DNA of 64,000 nt, from assembly GCA_019058445.1 (NCBI GenBank), contig JAHPZA010000006.1:160001-224000 (forward strand). The letters run 5' to 3'. A program made the position numbers and the translations under genes. Below the pieces are notes generated by a model that saw only the letters and a program-made list of their open reading frames with translations, did no database searches and was not told where the DNA came from. Numbering within the stretch: position 1 is the stretch's first letter; each line of letters begins with the position of its first letter. The stretch is from Promethearchaeota archaeon (GTDB taxonomy: Archaea; Asgardarchaeota; Lokiarchaeia; Sigyniarchaeales; SOKP01). Positions 4,188 through 58,263 of the stretch are shown here, piece after piece.

Positions 4188-6230
4188 TTATATACTATTA
4201 CCCATTTTATAACCTCGAGCAACAGCTTCCATTACCGTTTCTGGTTTACGAGCATCTCCGATTTTCTCTACTTTAATAGTACCTAGTTGCTTGATTTCTT
4301 TATAAAGAGCATCGTTCGGTTCGACCCCGGTAGCATAATAGATATAATCTATATCACTAATTGCGTTTTCTTTACCCGAAGAGTCTGAATAATTTACATA
4401 ATTTTCGCCGATTTCAGTGACTTTTACACTTGTAAGGAATTTCACACCTAAAGCATCGCATTTATCAAGAAGTACCCATTTCGTAGTCCTTCCTAACGCA
4501 GATCCTAATTTTGGTAACATTTCAAGAACGGTAACCTTATTCCTTCCCTTATGCATCATATCTAACGCAATTTGAGGCTCTAAGGCCTTATAGAATGTAA
4601 GAAAATCAAATGCTTCACGGCTTAATGTTCCATATTTTGCAATGTATATTGCTAATTCTATACCAGTGGCTCCGCCTCCTATAATAACATTGTTCTTACC
4701 AACTGGAGCATCACCGCTTAAAGCATCATTTGCCCAATATACATTTGCTCTGTCAATACCGGGAATAGGAGGTTTTATGGGATTTGAACCAGTGGCGACA
4801 AATGCAACGTCAGGATTGAATTCTTTTACTATATCAATAGTGACATTTTGTTGGAAATGTACATTGATGCCGTATTTCTGAATCCAATAGTTATAATTAT
4901 CTATCATACGTTTAAATTCGTTTCTTCCTGGTGGAATCCAGATTATGTTTAATAACCCGCCAATTTTATCATCCTTCTCAAAAATATGAACATCATGTCC
5001 TCTAATTGCCGCTATTCTCGCAGCCTCTAATCCTCCTGCTCCTGCTCCAATAATCATAACTTTTTTCTTTTCTTTCAATGGTTTCAGTTCAGTTCGGGCT
5101 TCATTTCCCGCTCGAGCATTCCTTAAACACGTGACAGGCATCATCCTGAATACCTGGTCAAAGCATCCTTGATTGCAGCCAATACAGTTCATTATATCTC
5201 TTAATTCACCCTTTTGAGCTTTCATTGGCAGATAAGGATCAGCAATTAACCCTCTTCCAATACAAATAGCATCAGCTTTTCCGGCCATTAAAACTTGTTC
5301 GGCGAGCTCAGGGTTGTTAATTCTATTGGAAGAAAATATAGGAATAGATACACGTTTATGAATATTTTCAGCTAGGTATGTATAACATCCTTCTGGAACA
5401 TCCATTGTTAATTGTGGTGTTTTTGTTTCATGCCAACCACCTGTTACGTTGAAATAATCTAAATATTTACCTAATTCTTCTGCAATAACTACTTTTTCCT
5501 TATATGTATTGCTGCCTGGAACAAAATCATCTCCAGAAATTCGATAGCCAAGAGGGATATCGTCTACTTTAGAACGCATTAATTCAATGGTTTCAATCGG
5601 GAATCTTAAACGATTTTCAAGATCGCCCCCATATTTATCAGTTCTCTTGTTAGTTTTTGGGGAACAAAACTGATCGGTTAAATAACCAGCATTTCCGCAA
5701 ATCTCTACTGCATCGAAGCCTGCTTTCTTAGCTCTAATTGTAGCGTCGGCAAAAGCCTCTTGTTCACGCTTTATATCTTCAAGACTCATTTCCTTAGGAG
5801 TGGTCTTACTAAAATTACTATAAACTGCAGAGGGGGCAATAGGTGTTCTGCCAATTATCTGTGGGAATGCGTTTAGGCCTCAATGGTAAATCCATTTCGA
5901 GGAAGCCCCGCCATGGTATAATTGGCAACAGATCTTTACATCATCTCGAGCATTGTGTACGGCTTCAGTTAATTTCTGTAAATCAGGAATAAATTTATCG
6001 TCATCAACTGCAATCATCGATGGTAAACCCTTTGCATAAACGTCTACATAACACCCTCCTACAATTAGCATTCCAGCACCTCCCTTAGCCCTTTCAACGT
6101 AAAAATCTATCAATTTGTCAGTGATAAACCCATTTTTTGCCAAGTTGAGATGCATCGCAGGCATTATAATACGATTAGACACATCCATATCCTTTATTTT
6201 AAAAGGAGTAAATAGTTTAAAGAACTTCAT
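4188..6230 (-). CDS. fadH: 2,4-dienoyl-CoA reductase / OYE-family NADH:flavin oxidoreductase; two exons (6230-5903, 5872-4188), about 670 aa after removing a 30-nt intron
   Basis: ORF 5880-6230 (NRIIMPAM, ERAKGGAG, QLYHGG) and ORF 4188-5789 (AGFDAVEI, NKRTDKYGG, CIGCNQGC, GAGAGG) are in the same frame. Splicing gives QLYHGGAYAFPQIIGRTPIAPSA, matching the family QLxHxGxYA...P.APSA pattern. Confidence 0.85.
5873..5902 (-). other. Putative 30-nt bulge-helix-bulge (BHB) mRNA intron in the fadH-like gene
   Basis: mRNA: GCG[GGGC]UU^C CUCGAAAUGG-AUUUA-CCAUUGAG [GCCU]AA^A CGC. 4-bp central helix, two 3-nt bulges, inner and outer helices; contains the in-frame UGA. Confidence 0.85.
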
Positions 6231-27447: not shown

Positions 27448-27951
27448 TTAAGCACCTCCCTCGTATTCTGGTTTAGCAATCCATCTTTCATACTCATCTT
27501 CAGGTACAAAAAAGAAATCCGTCATTTTACCTTCTCTGTTTTTGGAAAATACCGCTTTAACTCTTCGTCCTTTTTTAACTTTTGAGGGAACTAGATTTTC
27601 TGAAAATATTCCTTGAAATAAAGCAGTGTCAGCTCCATCTAATTTTATAAAACCTATAGAATAGGGTACCGATTTTATAAACGCAGAAGTTGTATACCAA
27701 ACGATAGTGCTAACCTCAATCGTTCCTGTTTGTTTCATTTCAATCCATTCGGTAGGCGAATAACATTCTGAGCAATTAATTCTTGGAGGCATCCATATTT
27801 TCCCGCAATTTGAATTAGTGCATTTAGTTCCTAACAACTTTTTATTGTTCATGACCTCAATAAAGAACTTAGATTGTCCTCCCATCGTGTATTTATAGTT
27901 AATTTTAATTATATCCCTTATTTCATGTGATTGAAAATCTTGCTTGCTCAT
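27448..27951 (-). CDS. DUF35 family Zn-ribbon/OB-fold protein
   Basis: CTNSNCG...PPRINCSEC, KLDGAD, RVKAVF. Confidence 0.88.
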   Translation of the reverse strand: MSKQDFQSHEIRDIIKINYKYTMGGQSKFFIEVMNNKKLLGTKCTNSNCGKIWMPPRINCSECYSPTEWIEMKQTGTIEVSTIVWYTTSAFIKSVPYSIGFIKLDGADTALFQGIFSENLVPSKVKKGRRVKAVFSKNREGKMTDFFFVPEDEYERWIAKPEYEGGA

Positions 27952-29275
27952 GGTTGTTTCAATCCCTCCTCATTCGTCATTACAATAATCGCAGCATATG
28001 CTGCTCCAGGACCTCCAATTGAGTGCGCTATAGCCCTGCCTTTTTCAATTGTTACTTGGTGCTTACCAGCATCTTCTCGAAGTTGTAGTGCTGCTTCTCC
28101 TGTGCTCATAATCCCTGTAGCACCTACAGCGTGACCGCATCCAATCAATCCTCCTGATGGGCAACATGGTACTTCACCATTAATCCATGGCCCTTCTCCT
28201 GGTTTTTCAAAGCTATTTTCAATCCAAGGACCTCCTTCTCCAAAAGGAACAAATCCCAATTCTTCATACGATATAACCTCTTGCCCGCTAAATGCATCAT
28301 GCAGTTCTGCTAAGTCAACTTGTTGCTTTATTTTATTATAATCAAGTCCTGCCATTTTATAAGCTACTTTAGCTGCATTAATATTTGAATATAATCTTCC
28401 CATATCTTCTCTATTACCTATAAAACAGTCAGTATTCGCCGCACCTACACCCGTAATCCAAATTGGTTTTTCAATACCTAATTCCTTAACTTTTTCTTCT
28501 GGTGCTAGAATTAAGGCCGCTGATGCTTCTGAGTAAAGACAACAATCTAACATTTTAAAAGGATAACAAATAATCCTCGAATTCAAGACATCTTCAATTG
28601 TTAAATCCATCGGAGACTGCGCTTTAGGATTAAGCATTGCGTTTCCATGGTTTTTAACGCTAACAATAGCCAAAATTAACTAAACGTTAAAATTTTAAGC
28701 CATATGCTCTTCAGTTGGATTTCCAAATTCCTCAAAATGAGCATTAACCATAGAAACGTAAGAACTAGCTGCCATCATCCCCATAGGATACTCATAAGTC
28801 AAATCTGCTGAATATGCGATGGCATTGAGCACTTCTGGTGTTGTTGTACCTGTTTAAACTTATTAGGGATATCCTAATTGATTTGTTCATCGTAACAATC
28901 GTTACATTTTTCCAGACCAAGACATAGGCATAGGTCTGACAACCCAGAAGCAACTTCAGCATAAGCCATCCTTACAGTATAGCCGCCTGTAGCACCTCCT
29001 GAGGCAATCCGGGTACCTGGCTTATCATTCATCCCGATGTAACTATTAGTAAAAATATCCGGCATGAATTGCCGTTCAAACAGCTCGTTATAAATCCCAT
29101 ACACTGTTGATTCCAAGTCTTTGTGCGTAATTTGTGCTCCGTTCTTATTGGCATCGTCAAGCGCCAATTTTGTCGCGTCATAAGCCAGCTCAAAATAGGT
29201 CTTATCCAAATATCTTGCTCTAAAAGGTGTTATTCCTACACCTATTATCGCTACTTTTCTCACTTTATTTTTCAC
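27948..29275 (-). CDS. Thiolase-like protein in three exons (29275-28883, 28853-28696, 28665-27948), 422 aa after removing two introns
   Basis: N-terminal ORF (VAIIGVG.TPF...GLEK), a 158-nt middle exon (TGTTTPEVLNAIAYSAD...PTEEHMA) and a C-terminal ORF (VSVKNH.NA..NPKA, AELHDAF, PSGGLIGCGHAVGATG). Exons total 1269 nt = 423 codons. Confidence 0.85.
28666..28695 (-). other. Putative 30-nt BHB mRNA intron (thiolase intron 2)
   Basis: AU[GGCU]UA^A AAUUUUAAC-GUUUA-GUUAAUUUU [GGCU]AU^U GU. Contains in-frame UAA and UAG; splicing gives EEHMAYVSVKNH. Confidence 0.75.
28854..28882 (-). other. Putative 29-nt BHB/BHL mRNA intron (thiolase intron 1)
   Basis: [GAAC]AA^A UCAAUUAGG-AUAUC-CCUAAUAA [GUUU]AA^A CAGG. 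Frameshifting and stop-containing; splicing gives DCYDEQTGTTTPEV. Confidence 0.78.
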
Positions 29276-29353
29276 TCAATATTTTTTAGATTTTTTTGAA
29301 TATATTATAGATATAGATTTAATTTGTCTTTAATCATATTTTAAAATTGTTAA
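29196..29353. repeat. Repeat copy 1: thiolase 5' end plus divergent promoter region
   Basis: taggtcttatccaaatatcttgctctaaaaggtgttattcctacacctattatcgctacttttctcac...atatagatttaat...tattttaaaattgttaat. Confidence 0.85.
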
Positions 29354-29475
29354 TCTTAATTTTGAATTATTAGGTTTGATTCAATAAGAATAGTATAAAT
29401 AATTTTTATATATTAACATAAGTTTTAGATTACTATGGATAATCCAGTTATTATATTTTAAAAAGAGACTTTTCT

Positions 29476-30144: not shown

Positions 30145-30263
30145 ATTTGTAAAAACTGTGGATATAAATCATTGGGTCCTTTTGAAATCTGTTCCAATTG
30201 CAGGATTAAACAAAATAAAGAAAATTAAACAAAAGTAGTAAAGTAAGATAAATCATTTCAAAT

Positions 30264-30417
30264 TAGGTCTTATCTAAATATCTTGCTCTAAAAGGTGTTA
30301 TTCCTACACCTATTATCGCTACTTTTCTCACGTTTTTTCACTTAATTTTATTCGTATTTTTTTATATATTATAAATATAGATTTAATGTTTATTTGCTAA
30401 TATTTTAAAATTGTTAA
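30264..30417. repeat. Repeat copy 2: near-identical thiolase 5' fragment plus promoter
   Basis: About 68 bp almost identical to 29196-29263, followed by a diverged copy of the promoter. Confidence 0.85.
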
Positions 30418-30688
30418 TATTTCCTCAAATGATGGTTTATTAATTATAAGTAGAAATTTAGAACGATTGGAATAAAATGTAAATTATGAATAATCCGCGT
30501 TTTAATTTGTCTTGAATTGTATTTCAAAATGTTAAAATGTCTTAAAGTATGAATTTCAAATAAGTAAAAATCTTATTTTATATAACTAAATGTTTAATAA
30601 TAGCAAAATAGATAAGAATAAATATAAATGCACAAAAAAATTGTTCTTTCTAAATTGCTACTAAGAGAAATTACGATCAGTAAAAGAT

Positions 30689-31540: not shown

Positions 31541-31610
31541 ATTATTGGTAAAGATTCAATTTTACTCTAAAATAAAACAGAAACAAAAATAGATCTTAAT
31601 TCCCTCACTA

Positions 31611-31731
31611 ATTATCGCTACTTTTCTCACTTTATATTCACATAAGCTGTTTTGATTTATTTATATTATAAGATATAGATTTAATTTGTCTTAACTCATA
31701 TTTTAAAATTTTCGATAGAAATTTTGAAATT
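31611..31731. repeat. Repeat copy 3: shorter thiolase 5' fragment plus promoter
   Basis: attatcgctacttttctcacttta...agatatagatttaatttgtctt...catattttaaaatt matches copy 1. Confidence 0.8.
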
Positions 31732-48409: not shown

Positions 48410-50842
48410 TTATTTCTTAATTCTTAATCTATTTCTCTCGATTAAATTTCTTATTTCTTCAATTAAGGCTTCTGATAATTCAGTCTGACTAATACCAAAA
48501 GTTTCTAATTTAGTAAGATTTCCTAAATCTTCAATGTGAGAAATTGGATTTGTGCTTATACTTAAGTTTCTTAAATTTGAGAGTTTTTCAAGCCCATTTA
48601 TTTGTTTAATATTATTGTCTGAGAGATTTAAATTCTCAAGATTAATCAGATTCTCAACATTTATTTTAATTATCTTAGTTCTCCTTATCATTAGACTCTT
48701 TAAACTTACTAGATACCTAAGTCCAATAATTTTAGATAAATTGTTACCAACTAAACTAAGATGTTTTAAATACCGAAGTGATTTGAAAATTTTAAAAGTT
48801 CTCAAGTTATTACTGTTTATTGATAAAGAGGATAAATTAGGAAATAGCTCAAAAATCTTCTTTTCAAGATAGTCTATATTATTTATTGATAAATAGATAA
48901 TCTTTCCATTTAGGGATCTAAATTTAAAACTATATTGTGTTCTTCTCGCTCCATATTTTAAAAATTCTAATCCTATTGCCTCTTCCAATGATAGAAAATA
49001 GTCTTTTAAGTTTTTATTAACAAATTTAAGAGCTTTATTTTTATCTCTTAACTCACATTTTATATGATATAAATCGCAAAAAAAATTCCAGAGTTTATTA
49101 AATTTAGAATTTATTTCTGATAATGTATATTGTTTTCGGCCAATTGTATTATCTTCCTTAATATCTTCTACAAAAGGTTTATAAGAGTATGTTTCAAGAT
49201 GAGTATCCCCCAGAACAATGTGAGCGGACCAATTAGGGGCCTCTGTTGTCCTTTTATATCGAGAACTTAAATTCGATGGTATTTCACTAACTAAATTATC
49301 TAACATTTCGATATGATGTCCTTTGATGTCTTCAGGAATTTCTTCAATCTCATTATTATTTAACGTTAATACAGCTAATTTAGTCATTTCTTTTATTGCT
49401 TCAGGGATTTTTTTTATATAATTATTATCTAAATGTAGATGTCCAACAGAGGTAAGATTTCTAATTGAGTCCGGAATTTCCGAAATTCTATTATTGCTCA
49501 GCGAAAGCCAACTTAGTGAGTTAAGATTGCCTAGACAAGCTGGTATAAATTCAATTTCATTATTGTCAAAACTTAAATGATTTAAAAATTTAAACTTACA
49601 AATAAATTCGGGTATAATTTTGAGGGAATTATTACTTAAAGCCAACTCTGTAAGCATATGAAGGTTCTTTAAAGACATTGGCAAATTTTTGATTTTATTT
49701 CCACTAAAATTTAATTTTTTTAATGTTTTAAGATTTCCAATCCATTCTGGAATTTCTTTTAAGATATTCCCTCCAAAATTTAAAATTTCAAGAGATTTAA
49801 GCGATTTAATTTTTTCTGGAATTTTATCTATAAGATTCCCACCGATGTCCAGATTTATTATTGATTTAATATTGCTAATTGATTCTGGAATTTCCTGAAT
49901 TTGGTTGCCACTTAAATTTAAACTCCTTAAATTAATAAGGTTTCCTATAGATTCTGGAATCTTTGCGATTTTATTTTCAAGAAGAATCAACTCCTTAAGT
50001 GATGTGAGTTTTCCAATCGATTCTGGAATTACGCCAATATTATTTGTAAATATTTCGAATTTTTCAAGAGAAATGAGCCCACCTATTGATTCCGGGATGG
50101 TTCGAATCCTATTTATCCCTAGGAATAGATACTTCAATTTCTTTAACTCTCCAATTGATTCTGGAATCATCTCTAAGGTACAACCTATCATGGAGATCTC
50201 CTCTAAATGATTTAATTGCCCGATACTTTCGGGAATAAAATGAAACTCGTATTGATCGCTGTGAGGCGCAAAATAAAAGCCTGTTATGTGCCCATCACGG
50301 CTTAACTTGTAATCGTACCACCCATCTTTAAATCGGAGGTCCTCATCACAAGTAGCTTTTTCCAATTTGCTCCCGTAGGCTTTTTCCATTAAAACCAGTA
50401 CAAACGCATCATCATAGAAAAGCCCATCATCTACATACTCTTGGATGCTTCCCTCTATTCTTGAGTAAAGTTCTTCTTTATAACCATCAAGTAAAGGATT
50501 TTTTGACCTCCAAATTAGATCAAATACCATAACAGGAAAATAATCTCTGCGATCAAGCGATTTTATCAGGGACAAGAACTTTTTAGGGAAATCTCTAAGC
50601 AGCCATTTTACGGTACGGATTCTTATTGCGGTATTCCAGTCTGTTAAAAATGTTTTTTCCAAGAATTTAAAAATCTCTTCATTTTTAACACCTAAACTTT
50701 CTAAAATCTTGAAAGCATCTTCTCTGAGATATTCATTAGGTTTATTTTCGATGATATGGATTAATGAATTAATTAACGCTTCCTTGTCCAACTTACCTTC
50801 TTGAAAACGTTTTAAAATCTCAGCTGGATTTATTATTGTCAT
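48410..50842 (-). CDS. Leucine-rich repeat protein (two LRR blocks)
   Basis: Repeated IPESIGxLxxLxxLxLxxN units and C-terminal SDS22-like LRRs. Confidence 0.92.
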   Translation of the reverse strand: MTIINPAEILKRFQEGKLDKEALINSLIHIIENKPNEYLREDAFKILESLGVKNEEIFKFLEKTFLTDWNTAIRIRTVKWLLRDFPKKFLSLIKSLDRRDYFPVMVFDLIWRSKNPLLDGYKEELYSRIEGSIQEYVDDGLFYDDAFVLVLMEKAYGSKLEKATCDEDLRFKDGWYDYKLSRDGHITGFYFAPHSDQYEFHFIPESIGQLNHLEEISMIGCTLEMIPESIGELKKLKYLFLGINRIRTIPESIGGLISLEKFEIFTNNIGVIPESIGKLTSLKELILLENKIAKIPESIGNLINLRSLNLSGNQIQEIPESISNIKSIINLDIGGNLIDKIPEKIKSLKSLEILNFGGNILKEIPEWIGNLKTLKKLNFSGNKIKNLPMSLKNLHMLTELALSNNSLKIIPEFICKFKFLNHLSFDNNEIEFIPACLGNLNSLSWLSLSNNRISEIPDSIRNLTSVGHLHLDNNYIKKIPEAIKEMTKLAVLTLNNNEIEEIPEDIKGHHIEMLDNLVSEIPSNLSSRYKRTTEAPNWSAHIVLGDTHLETYSYKPFVEDIKEDNTIGRKQYTLSEINSKFNKLWNFFCDLYHIKCELRDKNKALKFVNKNLKDYFLSLEEAIGLEFLKYGARRTQYSFKFRSLNGKIIYLSINNIDYLEKKIFELFPNLSSLSINSNNLRTFKIFKSLRYLKHLSLVGNNLSKIIGLRYLVSLKSLMIRRTKIIKINVENLINLENLNLSDNNIKQINGLEKLSNLRNLSISTNPISHIEDLGNLTKLETFGISQTELSEALIEEIRNLIERNRLRIKK

Positions 50843-57138: not shown

Positions 57139-58263
57139 ATGGTAGAATCACCAAATTTAGGATTAAGTATTCTTTCTACGGTTATAGGAATTACAGCAGC
57201 AATTATCTTGACTTTCGTCTGTACGAGGCGTAAAGATTTAAAAGTTTGGCTTGCGGCATATTATGCTGTTGCTATTGGGCTATTGGCGAGTGCTATTGGA
57301 ACCGCTTTAAATCCTGGGGCTCATAATATATTAAGTAATGTGTTCTATTCTCTTGCAATTGTCATTATTTTCATTGCGATAGTGAAAGAGTATCGTCAAA
57401 CGTTCATGGAAAACAAAGTAGATAAAAATAAGTTTAAACAAGCTTTACCTGCTGCAGTTGTCATCAATCCAGTCATATTGGGCATGGAGATCTTCATAAT
57501 CACATTTTGTGTGATTGGGGCCGTTTTACTTTTGCGAATTTATTTACATAAAAGAACTCCTACTCATGCGTTTCTATTTTTAGTTTTACTTTCAGCTTTC
57601 TCTACATTGATGGTCACCGTGATTAGAACTTTTGGAGTAGAGGGTATTAGAGTATTTGGGCAAGGTATTACGATTTTTTTTGACACGATACTTTTAGTGA
57701 CTGCTATAGTTGCCCTTATTGAGCAAAAAATTACAAAAACCTCCATGGCATTGAGAAATGTCATTGATACTGCTACAAAAGCAAGTATCAATGTATCAAA
57801 TATAGCAACTGAATTAGCAGCGAGTGCCAGCGAAGTGAACTCCTCTTCCGAGGAAATTTCTATGACAGTTCAAGAAATTAATCGTGATGCGGCTCAAGTA
57901 ACTACTTCTACAAGTGATTTGAATAACATTATGCAGCTCATCAGAAACGTTGCGGAGCAGACGAATTTATTAGCATTAAATGCTGCTATAGAAGCAGGAA
58001 GAGCAGGAGAATATGGACGGGGATTTGCAGTGGTCGCAGATGAAGTAAGAAAACTTGCCGAAGAATCTAAAAAAGCAGTTGCGGATACGGGCGATAAATT
58101 TAATCTCATTGTGAAAAATATTCAAGCAACATCGACCTCTATGGAAGGAATTAGTGCTTCAACGGAAGAACAGACTGCTTCAATGGAAGAGATTTCAGCT
58201 ACTGCCAATAGACTGGGCAATTTAGCTGAAGATTTGAAAAACTCCTTGAAAAAACAGATATAA
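57139..58263 (+). CDS. Methyl-accepting chemotaxis-like protein with 6-TM sensor
   Basis: MCP hairpin motif; paralog of 33421. Confidence 0.92.

What the first reader, a model, noticed from the sequence alone, without database searches (positions are those of the whole stretch)
28666..28695. Second intron in the same thiolase mRNA, flanked by a direct repeat that also forms its central helix
The central helix is GGCU paired with GGCU (two G-U pairs), with bulges UAA and AUU and a symmetric inner stem AA/UU plus UUAAC/GUUAA. The insert is flanked by a TGGCT direct repeat, which may be the footprint of how it was gained (target duplication or reverse splicing; inference). Splicing predicts TEEHMAYVSVKNH, with the same spacing as the window paralogs TEEDLARVVVQNR and SEEEIAKVAVQGY. 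This would be a two-intron archaeal mRNA.
Basis: partly seen in the sequence, partly recalled or inferred. Interest (0 to 1): 0.82.

Follow-up and report, generated by a model that had tools for sequence, protein, structure and literature searches.

The report
tRNA-type intron in Asgard thiolase gene
A 30-base insert with two stop codons in a thiolase-like gene of an Asgard archaeon has the shape and boundaries of a tRNA-type (bulge-helix-bulge) intron. It is conserved in five related sequences, so the mRNA very probably has to be spliced twice, which published work shows for only one archaeal protein-coding sequence (cbf5).

Summary
Window 28695..28666 (minus strand) is a 30-nt in-frame insert carrying TAA and TAG. 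It splits an otherwise intact thiolase-like gene that also carries a 29-nt insert at 28882..28854.

The BHB-intron reading is well supported by comparison, though no RNA was seen:
- **Boundaries.** Eleven related genomes have the gene without this insert. Cutting after the second base of each bulge gives M-A-Y-V-S-V, as in the closest intron-less orthologue (TAC, Tyr).
- **Second lineage.** Four more versions of the same insert exist. In the most distant one the bulge bases differ and the cut gives Leu, as in that lineage's intron-less kin. Repeat deletion or ribosome hopping would give Ile in both lineages.
- **Constraint.** The insert differs at 7-13% of positions where four-fold synonymous sites differ at 50-66%. 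The gene has dN/dS of about 0.03-0.05.
- **Generality.** Eight independent 29-34-nt inserts in this orthologue group all have a BHB at the frame-restoring position (six with 4/4 helix pairs, two with 3/4).
- **Enzymes.** EndA and RtcB are encoded in the genome.

One caveat: energy folding does not predict the 3' bulge.

This scan has noted such introns on other Asgard DNA. I found no paper in the searchable library describing them.

The parts
28883..29275 (-). Exon 1 of the thiolase-like gene (N-terminal thiolase domain; the start codon is uncertain, GTG at 29275 opens the frame)
   Evidence: ORF list; Pfam Thiolase_N; collinear with orthologues
28854..28882 (-). Intron 1, 29 nt, shifts the frame and contains TAG. 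H is GAAC/GUUU, the bulges are AAA/AAA, the inner hairpin is AUUAGG/CCUAAU
   Evidence: Absent from 8 of the 12 first-aligned orthologues. The 4/4 helix sits at the only shift that gives D-E-Q-T-G-T. In L025 the helix is GAGC/GCUU and the stem UUUGG/CCAAA, which are compensatory changes
28696..28853 (-). Exon 2 (52 and 2/3 codons, ...TGTTTPEVLNAIAYSADLTYEYPMGMMAASSYVSMVNAHFEEFGNPTEEHMA + UA)
28666..28695 (-). Intron 2 (the finding), 30 nt, in frame, with TAA and TAG. The predicted cuts lie between 28696|28695 and 28666|28665
28698..28701 (-). Exon strand of central helix H (GGCU). Its last base is the third position of the Ala codon
   Evidence: Invariant in all 5 versions of the intron. Every intron carrier keeps GCT, while 14 of 15 intron-less orthologues use GCA, GCC or GCG
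28668..28671 (-). Intron strand of central helix H (GGCU)
   Evidence: Invariant in all 5 versions
28672..28694 (-). Inner hairpin h' (AA UU UUAAC GUUUA GUUAA UU UU)
   Evidence: 88.9% of cells are paired across the 5 versions. One pair switches A-U to U-A, two switch to G.U, and L025 has a perfect 9-bp stem
27948..28665 (-). Exon 3 (U + 238 codons + stop; thiolase C-terminal domain)
   Evidence: ORF list; Pfam Thiolase_C_1, 3.7e-24,
27448..27951 (-). Downstream gene overlapping the stop codon: DUF35/OB-fold protein (OB_ChsH2_C), the usual partner of thiolase-like proteins
   Evidence: the same neighbour is present on metagenome contig L022

Best explanation
Window 28695..28666 (minus strand) is a 30-nt bulge-helix-bulge intron in the pre-mRNA of a functional thiolase-like gene of an Asgard archaeon (Hermodarchaeota/Promethearchaeota MAG).

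Proposed mechanism:
1. The last bases of exon 2 (GGCU) pair with the last bases of the intron (GGCU) to form the 4-bp helix H.
2. UAA bulges on the 5' strand and AUU bulges on the 3' strand.
3. A 9-position intron hairpin stacks on H.
4. The splicing endonuclease EndA cuts after the second base of each bulge (GGCUUA|A ... GGCUAU|U).
5. RtcB joins the exons, giving GCU UAU GUU (M-A-Y-V-S-V).
6. Together with the 29-nt intron 1, this yields one open frame of 422 codons.

What is shown: the anatomy, the absence of the insert from orthologues, the fit of the junction, the conservation, the selection on the gene, and the presence of the enzymes.

What is inferred: that the RNA is actually cut and ligated, and that EndA is the enzyme.
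For: 1. **The gene is otherwise intact and under purifying selection.** Removing both inserts gives a complete 422-codon frame. dN/dS is 0.03-0.05 against the three closest orthologues, at dS 1.1-1.5.

2. **Orthologues lack the insert at exactly this point.** Eleven related genomes have the gene without this insert.

3. **The BHB cut predicts the right residue in two lineages.** In the G000/G008/L022 clade it gives UA+U = Tyr, and intron-less G002 has TAC. In the L025/L029 lineage the bulges are UUA and AUA, giving UU+A = Leu. Its intron-less sisters L014, L016 and L017 have CTT (Leu). By my estimate from codon degeneracy, non-coding bases would spell both clade residues by chance about 0.3% of the time.

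4. **The same intron recurs in independent assemblies.** There are five distinct versions (G000, G008, three JGI samples, one ENA contig, two further JGI contigs, one further MAG). H and the bulge lengths are invariant. 93% of cells are paired, against 16-48% for slid controls. Changes fall in the loop or mismatch positions, or keep the pairs.

5. **The intron is conserved above synonymous sites.** It differs at 2-4 of 30 positions where four-fold sites differ at 50-66% (Fisher p = 1e-4 to 7e-8). All carriers keep the Ala codon GCU that H needs.

6. **The pattern is general in this gene.** Eight independent 29-34-nt inserts in this orthologue group are unrelated in sequence and lie at different sites. 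Each has a 4-bp helix with 3-nt bulges at a shift that restores the orthologue protein.
   - Six of eight have 4/4 pairs; the other two have 3/4.
   - The background is 1 in 79 off-target shifts.
   - The mirrored geometry gives 0 in 25.
   - My rough joint probability is about 1e-6.

7. **Intron 1 of the same gene shows compensatory changes.** In H an A-U pair becomes G-C, and the stem also compensates.

8. **The machinery is present.** The genome encodes EndA (TIGR00324, 3e-25) and RtcB (2.6e-172). 19 of about 23 tRNA genes that ARAGORN detects carry introns.

9. **Other genes of this genome carry similar inserts.** These ~30-nt BHB-bounded inserts restore continuity with paralogues. They include two acyl-CoA ligase paralogues, two EF-2-like genes and window 5873-5902.

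10. **Cleavage position is established.** Cleavage between the second and third bulge residues is established for the cbf5 mRNA intron (PMC2738675).
Against: - No RNA evidence: no spliced transcript was seen.
- Energy folding does not predict the BHB.
  - In the 81-nt context z = -1.04.
  - In the 60-nt context the MFE is -9.4 to -11.1 kcal/mol, against -2.1 to -5.7 for the BHB conformer.
  - In four of the five versions (not G008) the MFE pairs the first two bases of the 3' bulge with the AU of the AUG codon. In G000 it also absorbs most of the 5' bulge.
- The outer exon-exon helix h is only 2 bp (U.G, A-U), so this is a relaxed motif.
- Covariation within intron 2 alone is not significant. 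One pair changes on both sides, and 151 of 500 shuffles reach the score with only five sequences.
- Only one EndA-like gene was detected. The heterotetrameric or epsilon-type enzymes known for relaxed specificity could not be confirmed.
- Ile is not impossible at the junction: 1 of about 60 homologues has it.
Confidence: 0.8

Rival explanations
1. Programmed translational bypassing. The ribosome takes off at the Ala codon GCU (followed by UAA and a hairpin) and lands on the identical GCU 30 nt downstream, as in phage T4 gene 60 or the mitochondrial 'byps' of Magnusiomyces. The mRNA is not spliced and the product reads M-A-I-V-S-V.
For: There are matching GCU codons 30 nt apart. In four of the five versions a stop codon directly follows the first GCU, and a stem-loop follows it. 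Ile occurs once among about 60 homologues.
Against: - In the L025/L029 version the codon after the take-off site is UUA, not a stop.
- The model predicts Ile in both lineages. Intron-less kin have Tyr or Leu, and the bases that would be skipped spell exactly those residues.
- As read from the sequences printed, the other seven inserts of the same orthologue group have no matching take-off and landing codons. Several of them shift the frame.
- The GCU/GCU identity is forced by helix H.
Confidence: 0.05
2. Dead gene or neutral insertion scar. The 30 nt is a small insertion or duplication that inactivated the gene. Nothing removes it.
For: There are two in-frame stops and a second disrupting insert in the same gene. 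The flanking 5-nt direct repeat resembles slippage or duplication. The region upstream shows rearrangement, with the 5' end of the gene present three times.
Against: - dN/dS is 0.03-0.05 with no other lesion.
- The same insert has been kept in five diverged versions, through dS above 1.
- The insert itself is far better conserved than four-fold synonymous sites.
- The downstream partner gene is intact.
- The same architecture occurs in eight independent inserts.
Confidence: 0.05
3. The insert is removed from the RNA (or skipped) by a mechanism other than EndA/RtcB, for example an unknown nuclease and ligase pair that recognises the hairpin. The BHB-like geometry would be incidental to that mechanism.
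For: The BHB is not the predicted minimum-energy fold and helix h is minimal. Only one EndA subunit was found. No enzyme assay is available.
Against: The exact 4-bp helix and 3-nt bulge geometry sits at the frame-restoring position in 8 of 8 inserts, while the mirrored geometry gives 0 of 25. That is what EndA specificity predicts. EndA-dependent splicing of an mRNA with a relaxed BHB is established for cbf5 (PMC2738675, PMC10485636).
Confidence: 0.08
4. Assembly or sequencing artefact.
For: The genome is a MAG at 92.6% completeness and 4.3% contamination.
Against: The same insert occurs at the same site in independent assemblies from several projects and samples, with sequence differences.
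Confidence: 0.01

Closest known systems
cbf5 pre-mRNA intron of Crenarchaeota (Desulfurococcales, Sulfolobales; Watanabe 2002, Yokobori 2009, PMC2738675)
   Same: It is a short intron inside a protein-coding sequence. It is bounded by a relaxed BHB and cut between the second and third bulge residues by the tRNA splicing endonuclease, and the exons are then ligated. It shows gain and loss among related species.
   Different: The phylum differs (Asgard) and so does the gene (thiolase-like metabolic gene). There are two introns in one mRNA here and three in a congener, at variable positions in the same gene. It appears to be part of a wider set of such inserts in this genome.
HVO_1309 5'-UTR BHB intron of Haloferax volcanii (PMC7714728; PMC10485636)
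   Same: An mRNA substrate of archaeal EndA other than cbf5.
   Different: That intron lies in the 5' UTR and does not interrupt a reading frame. It is a single case in its genome.
Non-canonical and multiple BHB introns of archaeal tRNA genes, including the heavily interrupted tRNA genes of Asgard archaea (Marck and Grosjean 2003; PMC11291895; bioRxiv 10.64898/2026.10.13.758758)
   Same: The motif and size class are the same, and presumably the enzymes. There are many positions, repeated gains, and several introns per gene.
   Different: The host RNA is an mRNA. It has no tRNA body to hold the exon helix. The constraint on the junction is a codon rather than a tRNA position.
Translational bypass elements (T4 gene 60; mitochondrial byps)
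   Same: A short insert with stops and a hairpin between identical codons. The gene is nevertheless functional.
   Different: The product predicted by hopping (Ile) does not fit the orthologues. The stop after the take-off codon is not conserved. The sister inserts lack matched codons.

Membership tests
Archaeal BHB intron (EndA substrate) | [quoted passage not shown] | tested here: met
   GGCU/GGCU pairs at 4/4 (two of them G.U), with bulges UAA and AUU. This is invariant in the 5 versions.
Archaeal BHB intron (EndA substrate) | Cutting after the second base of each bulge gives a functional junction | tested here: met
   The cut gives M-A-Y-V-S-V at orthologue length, and Leu in the L025/L029 lineage. 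Each matches the intron-less kin of its clade.
Archaeal BHB intron (EndA substrate) | Flanking helices h' (intron) and h (exon-exon), as in the strict hBHBh' form | tested here: inconclusive
   h' is present: 2+5 bp here and a perfect 9 bp in L025. h is only 2 bp (U.G, A-U). This is a relaxed form.
Archaeal BHB intron (EndA substrate) | The BHB is the thermodynamically favoured local fold | tested here: not met
   The MFE is -9.4 to -11.1 kcal/mol, against -2.1 to -5.7 for the BHB conformer. In four of the five versions (not G008) the 3' bulge is paired in the MFE. This is not a strict defining feature, because enzyme binding is known to select relaxed motifs.
Archaeal BHB intron (EndA substrate) | The structure is conserved in homologous introns | tested here: met
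   93% of cells are paired against 16-48% for slid controls. The intron differs at 7-13% of positions against 50-66% at four-fold sites. Covariation proper is weak: one pair, 151 of 500 shuffles.
Archaeal BHB intron (EndA substrate) | The host encodes the splicing endonuclease and the RtcB ligase | tested here: met
   EndA at C9:770310-770921 (PF01974 2.7e-18; TIGR00324 3e-25). RtcB at C1:114713-116020 (2.6e-172). The subunit type is not resolved.
Archaeal BHB intron (EndA substrate) | Excision and exon ligation observed in RNA | not testable with these tools
   No spliced form was identifiable. No near-identical full-length protein appeared among the homologues.
cbf5 intron family | Located in cbf5 at the codon of the catalytic Asp | tested here: not met
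   The host gene is thiolase-like (Thiolase_N, Thiolase_C_1). It works like a cbf5 intron but is not a member of that family.
Programmed translational bypass | Identical take-off and landing codons flank the gap | tested here: met
   GCU at 28700-28698 and GCU at 28670-28668.
Programmed translational bypass | The bypass product agrees with homologues, and the signals are conserved | tested here: not met
   The model predicts Ile, but the clades have Tyr or Leu. The codon after the take-off site is UUA in L025. The other inserts lack matched codons.
Self-splicing group I/II intron or any described RNA family | Match to a curated RNA family; a ribozyme-sized core | tested here: not met
   No Rfam match at E up to 1 in 27900-29400. 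Thirty nt is far below ribozyme size (established knowledge).

The most novel reading that the evidence does not exclude
Asgard archaea of this lineage maintain a dynamic population of EndA-type introns inside ordinary protein-coding genes.

- There are several per gene: two here and three in a congener.
- They sit at many different positions in the same gene across species.
- Some are old enough to be shared by lineages whose synonymous sites are saturated, and sister lineages have lost them precisely.

This would be a protein-enzyme-based mRNA splicing regime, with intron gain and loss, in the closest prokaryotic relatives of eukaryotes. Expression of metabolic genes would depend on the tRNA splicing machinery and could be regulated through it.
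Probability: 0.6. Interest if true: 0.9.

Novelty: new variant of a known kind. Interest (0 to 1): 0.78.

Why it matters
In the literature I could search, EndA-dependent splicing of an archaeal coding sequence is documented only for cbf5 in Crenarchaeota, plus one 5'-UTR case in Haloferax (PMC7714728, PMC10485636).

Here a metabolic gene of an Asgard archaeon needs two such splices. Its orthologues carry up to three, at other positions.

If confirmed at the RNA level, three things follow:
- mRNA splicing is routine in the archaeal lineage nearest to eukaryotes.
- Gene callers systematically split or truncate such genes. Public databases hold the 241-aa fragment, and one call that reads TAG as Gln.
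- This orthologue group becomes a compact natural system for studying intron gain, precise loss and junction constraints.

It also makes one question directly testable: can the tRNA endonuclease support a genome-wide intron population?

Tried and rejected
**1. Minimum-energy folding as a test.** The region is not unusually stable (z = -1.04). The BHB is not the MFE. This stays as a caveat, not as a refutation.

**2. Genome-wide scan for BHB motifs whose removal merges two open frames.**
- There was no excess over the opposite-strand control: 269 vs 240 and 13386 vs 13520.
- In a 31% GC genome, intergenic hairpins and chance frames swamp the signal.
- Requiring a paralogue alignment to run across the junction gave 31 vs 20 loci. 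The excess was confined to 29-34 nt (19 vs 5).
- This is a lower bound, not a census.

**3. Paralogue split-HSP census.** It found only 8 loci, four of them clear BHB inserts. The paralogues are too divergent for this to be sensitive.

**4. Covariation statistics on intron 2.** Five sequences are too few: 151 of 500 shuffles reach the observed score.

**5. TGGCT repeat as an insertion footprint.** Rejected.

**6. Mobile-element or MITE origin.** There is no second copy of either intron in the genome beyond short AT-rich chance matches.

**7. Alternative genetic code.** Rejected. The 10 codons are absent from orthologues, and both TAA and TAG occur within them. One public gene call on L025 reads TAG as Gln and so carries the insert as LNFNNQLKLA. 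I take this to be an artefact of the caller.

**8. Search for a spliced, RNA-derived copy.** No homologue is 99% or more identical to any spliced product.

**9. Second EndA subunit.** Not found with PF01974, PF02778 or tBLASTn.

**10. Rfam.** No match.
Full report
**What is there**

The window is G000:C6:160001-224000 of a 4.6-Mb, 31% GC genome. Protein names and a congeneric contig title place it in the Asgard archaea (Candidatus Hermodarchaeota / Promethearchaeota MAGs).

On the minus strand, 29275..27948 holds a thiolase-like gene in three open pieces: 133, 45 and 241 codons. It is followed by a DUF35/OB-fold gene.

The piece boundaries are two short inserts. One is 29 nt at 28882..28854 and shifts the frame. 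The other is the finding, 30 nt at 28695..28666. It is in frame and carries TAA and TAG.

- GGCU (28701-28698) and GGCU (28671-28668) can pair, with two G.U pairs.
- UAA and AUU are left as 3-nt bulges on opposite strands, each 3' of its helix strand. This is the canonical BHB orientation.
- The 23 nt between them form AA/UU plus UUAAC/GUUAA around a 5-nt loop.
- TGGCT is repeated.

**Orthologues**

A search of 40 related genomes found an orthologue at 85-91% identity in 17 of them. I aligned 17 orthologous loci plus the window's own.

Eleven are uninterrupted at every site. The other seven, counting the window's own, carry 29-34-nt inserts at eight independent site-and-sequence combinations:
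- site N (G037)
- site A (G000, G002)
- site A' (G005)
- site B (G023, G017)
- site B' (G005)
- site C (G023)
- site D' (G005)
- site D (G000, G008)

Removing them at the positions given below restores a complete 415-428-codon frame in every case. This includes three inserts in G005.

**Test of the BHB geometry without using it to define the inserts**

For each insert I took the gap length from the alignment and slid the deletion from -6 to +6. For each shift I asked two questions:
- Which shifts reproduce the orthologue protein?
- Where do the four bases before each cut pair with each other?

In six of eight events a 4/4 helix with 3-nt bulges falls on a protein-compatible shift. In the other two the helix is 3/4.

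Among shifts that do not restore the protein, 4/4 occurs once in 79. The mirrored geometry (bulge 5' of the helix strand) never gives 4/4 at a compatible shift (0 of 25).

There are 1-6 compatible shifts per event and the per-shift background is about 3%. My rough estimate for six or more hits out of eight is about 1e-6.

The bulges are A-rich: AAA, AAU, AUA, UAA and similar. Cleavage between the second and third bulge residues is the established rule for the cbf5 mRNA intron (PMC2738675).

**Intron 2 itself**

At this single locus the motif alone is weak evidence. Of 230 possible in-frame, stop-free deletions, 7 have a 4/4 helix. Only the proposed one has the orthologue length.

The decisive points are comparative.

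*(a) Recurrence.* The same insert at the same site exists in five distinct versions:
- G000
- G008 (= JBHLLE010000270.1, Hermodarchaeota)
- metagenome contigs L022/L023
- metagenome contig L024
- L025/L026/L027/L029, a lineage only about 84% identical in protein

*(b) Invariance and pairing.* H and both bulge lengths never vary. Across the structure 93% of cells are paired, against 16-48% when the partner is slid. One stem pair switches A-U to U-A, and two switch to G.U. The U.U mismatches seen in G000 are U-A pairs in L025, which has a perfect 9-bp stem. With five sequences the covariation score is not significant (151 of 500 shuffles), and I do not lean on it.

*(c) Constraint on the intron.* It differs at 2-4 of 30 positions between genes whose four-fold synonymous sites differ at 50-66% (Fisher p = 1e-4 to 7e-8). 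The insert is therefore under constraint and is not a scar.

*(d) Constraint on the exon strand.* All carriers keep Ala = GCU, the exon strand of H. Fourteen of 15 intron-less orthologues use GCA, GCC or GCG.

*(e) The junction codon.* In G000, G008 and L022, UA from the 5' bulge plus U from the 3' bulge make UAU (Tyr). G002, the intron-less sister of G000 in the gene tree, has TAC. In L025/L029 the bulges are UUA and AUA, which make UUA (Leu). That lineage's intron-less sisters (G017, G016, G021) have CTT (Leu). Deletion between the repeats, or ribosome hopping, would give ATT or ATA (Ile) in both lineages. None of the 15 intron-less orthologues aligned here has Ile, and only 1 of about 60 database homologues does.

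**The gene is alive**

Against the three closest orthologues, dN/dS is 0.026-0.046 at dS 1.1-1.5. There is no lesion other than the two inserts.

Intron 1 is shared with G002 and with L025/L029. In L025 its helix H is GAGC/GCUU instead of GAAC/GUUU, so an A-U pair has become G-C. The exon side of that change is a synonymous Glu codon change. Its stem is UUUGG/CCAAA instead of UUAGG/CCUAA.

**Machinery and context**

The genome encodes:
- one EndA (203-codon frame, N- and C-terminal domains, TIGR00324 3e-25)
- RtcB

No second EndA subunit was found, so the enzyme type is unresolved.

ARAGORN detects only about 23 tRNA genes, 19 of them with introns. This fits published reports of heavily interrupted Asgard tRNA genes (PMC11291895; bioRxiv 10.64898/2026.10.13.758758).

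Elsewhere in the genome, ~30-nt BHB-bounded inserts restore continuity with paralogues in:
- two acyl-CoA ligase paralogues
- two EF-2-like genes
- window 5873-5902
- others

The excess over the opposite-strand control is confined to 29-34 nt (19 vs 5). This is a lower bound.

**Rivals**

*Translational bypass* is the most interesting rival for this particular insert, because identical GCU codons flank it and a stop follows the first. It fails on four counts:
- the junction residue
- the L025 version, where UUA follows the take-off codon
- the other inserts, which have no matched codons
- the GCU identity, which is simply what helix H requires

*A dead gene* is contradicted by selection on both the gene and the insert.

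*An artefact* is excluded by the independent assemblies.

*A non-EndA removal mechanism* cannot be excluded without biochemistry.

**Caveats**

- No RNA was seen.
- Nearest-neighbour folding prefers a structure that keeps H and the inner stem in four of the five versions (not G008). That structure pairs the first two bases of the 3' bulge with the AU of AUG, and in G000 it also absorbs the 5' bulge. The BHB conformer is 5-8 kcal/mol worse.
- The exon-exon helix is 2 bp, so this is a relaxed motif.

**The direct repeat**

TGGCT/TGGCT is real, but it is not a footprint:
- GGCU is its own G.U-tolerant complement, so the intron strand of H necessarily repeats the exon strand. The extra T is one base in an AT-rich genome.
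- A target duplication would imply an ancestral Ile, which the orthologues do not support.
- The other inserts show no such repeat.
- Neither intron has another copy in the genome.

**Distribution**

In the gene tree, intron D is present in G008, L022 and G000 but not in G002, which groups with G000 (UFBoot 89). It is also present in L029 but not in L029's three sisters. Supports are moderate. The pattern suggests several precise losses or transfer between lineages. I leave this open.

**Literature and earlier notes**

In the library searched, EndA-spliced mRNAs are cbf5 (Crenarchaeota) and the 5' UTR of HVO_1309 (PMC2738675, PMC7714728, PMC10485636). I found no paper describing BHB introns in Asgard coding sequences.

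This scan has noted the same kind of insert many times, in this genome and in other Asgard genomes. One follow-up on another genome reported an RNA-derived contig lacking the intron. Those notes are leads that I did not use as evidence. Where they concern this genome I re-tested them.

**Verdict**

The BHB-intron and two-intron reading is supported at about 0.8. The insertion-footprint idea is not supported. This is a new variant of a known kind, and interest is high.

Noticed in passing
window 29150-29400, 30258-30421, 31599-31728 (minus strand): The 5' end of the thiolase-like gene, with its upstream region, is present three times (87.5% over 168 nt and 81% over 136 nt). Different plus-strand genes lie between the copies. 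This looks like serial insertion or duplication at this spot.
   Followed up: partly
window 28854-28882 (minus strand): This is intron 1 of the same gene: 29 nt, frame-shifting, H GAAC/GUUU, bulges AAA/AAA. It is shared with G002 and with L025/L029, where helix H and the stem carry compensatory changes.
   Followed up: yes
L005 (G005), L010 (G023), L014 (G017), L015 (G037), L022-L024: Orthologues of the gene carry other 29-34-nt BHB-bounded inserts at six further sites. G005 has three in one gene. The site B inserts of G023 and G017 share their BHB core but have unrelated hairpins.
   Followed up: yes
window 28985-29015 region of exon 1 (protein motif RIASGGATGG): The thiolase-like protein has Gly-Gly-Ala-Thr-Gly-Gly where thiolases carry the nucleophilic Cys, and it is followed by a DUF35/OB_ChsH2_C gene. 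It may be an Ltp2/ChsH2-like aldolase or a scaffold rather than a true thiolase.
   Followed up: no
G000 C10:684116-684145 and C4:384841-384869: Two EF-2-like genes each carry a ~30-nt insert with a strong BHB (ACAG ata ... CUGU agu; AUGG uau ... CCAU aaa). A third EF-2 gene, at C9:663619-665790, is uninterrupted.
   Followed up: partly
G000 C6:877181-877209 and C6:862879-862908: Two acyl-CoA ligase paralogues are interrupted at nearly the same protein position (GWTQ.L.P|(D/N)PR) by unrelated 29-nt and 30-nt BHB inserts.
   Followed up: partly
whole genome G000: ARAGORN finds only about 23 tRNA genes in 4.6 Mb, 19 of them with introns. Many tRNA genes are probably too interrupted to be detected.
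   Followed up: no
L025 (ENA contig k141_367396), protein P0029: A public gene call reads TAG as Gln on this contig. It therefore translates intron 2 as the 10-residue insertion LNFNNQLKLA. This shows how such introns distort database proteins.
   Followed up: partly
window 50103-50133 and 57871-57903 (minus strand): Two further candidate BHB inserts (31 and 33 nt) in this window restore continuity with paralogues in my junction test. I did not inspect them individually.
   Followed up: no
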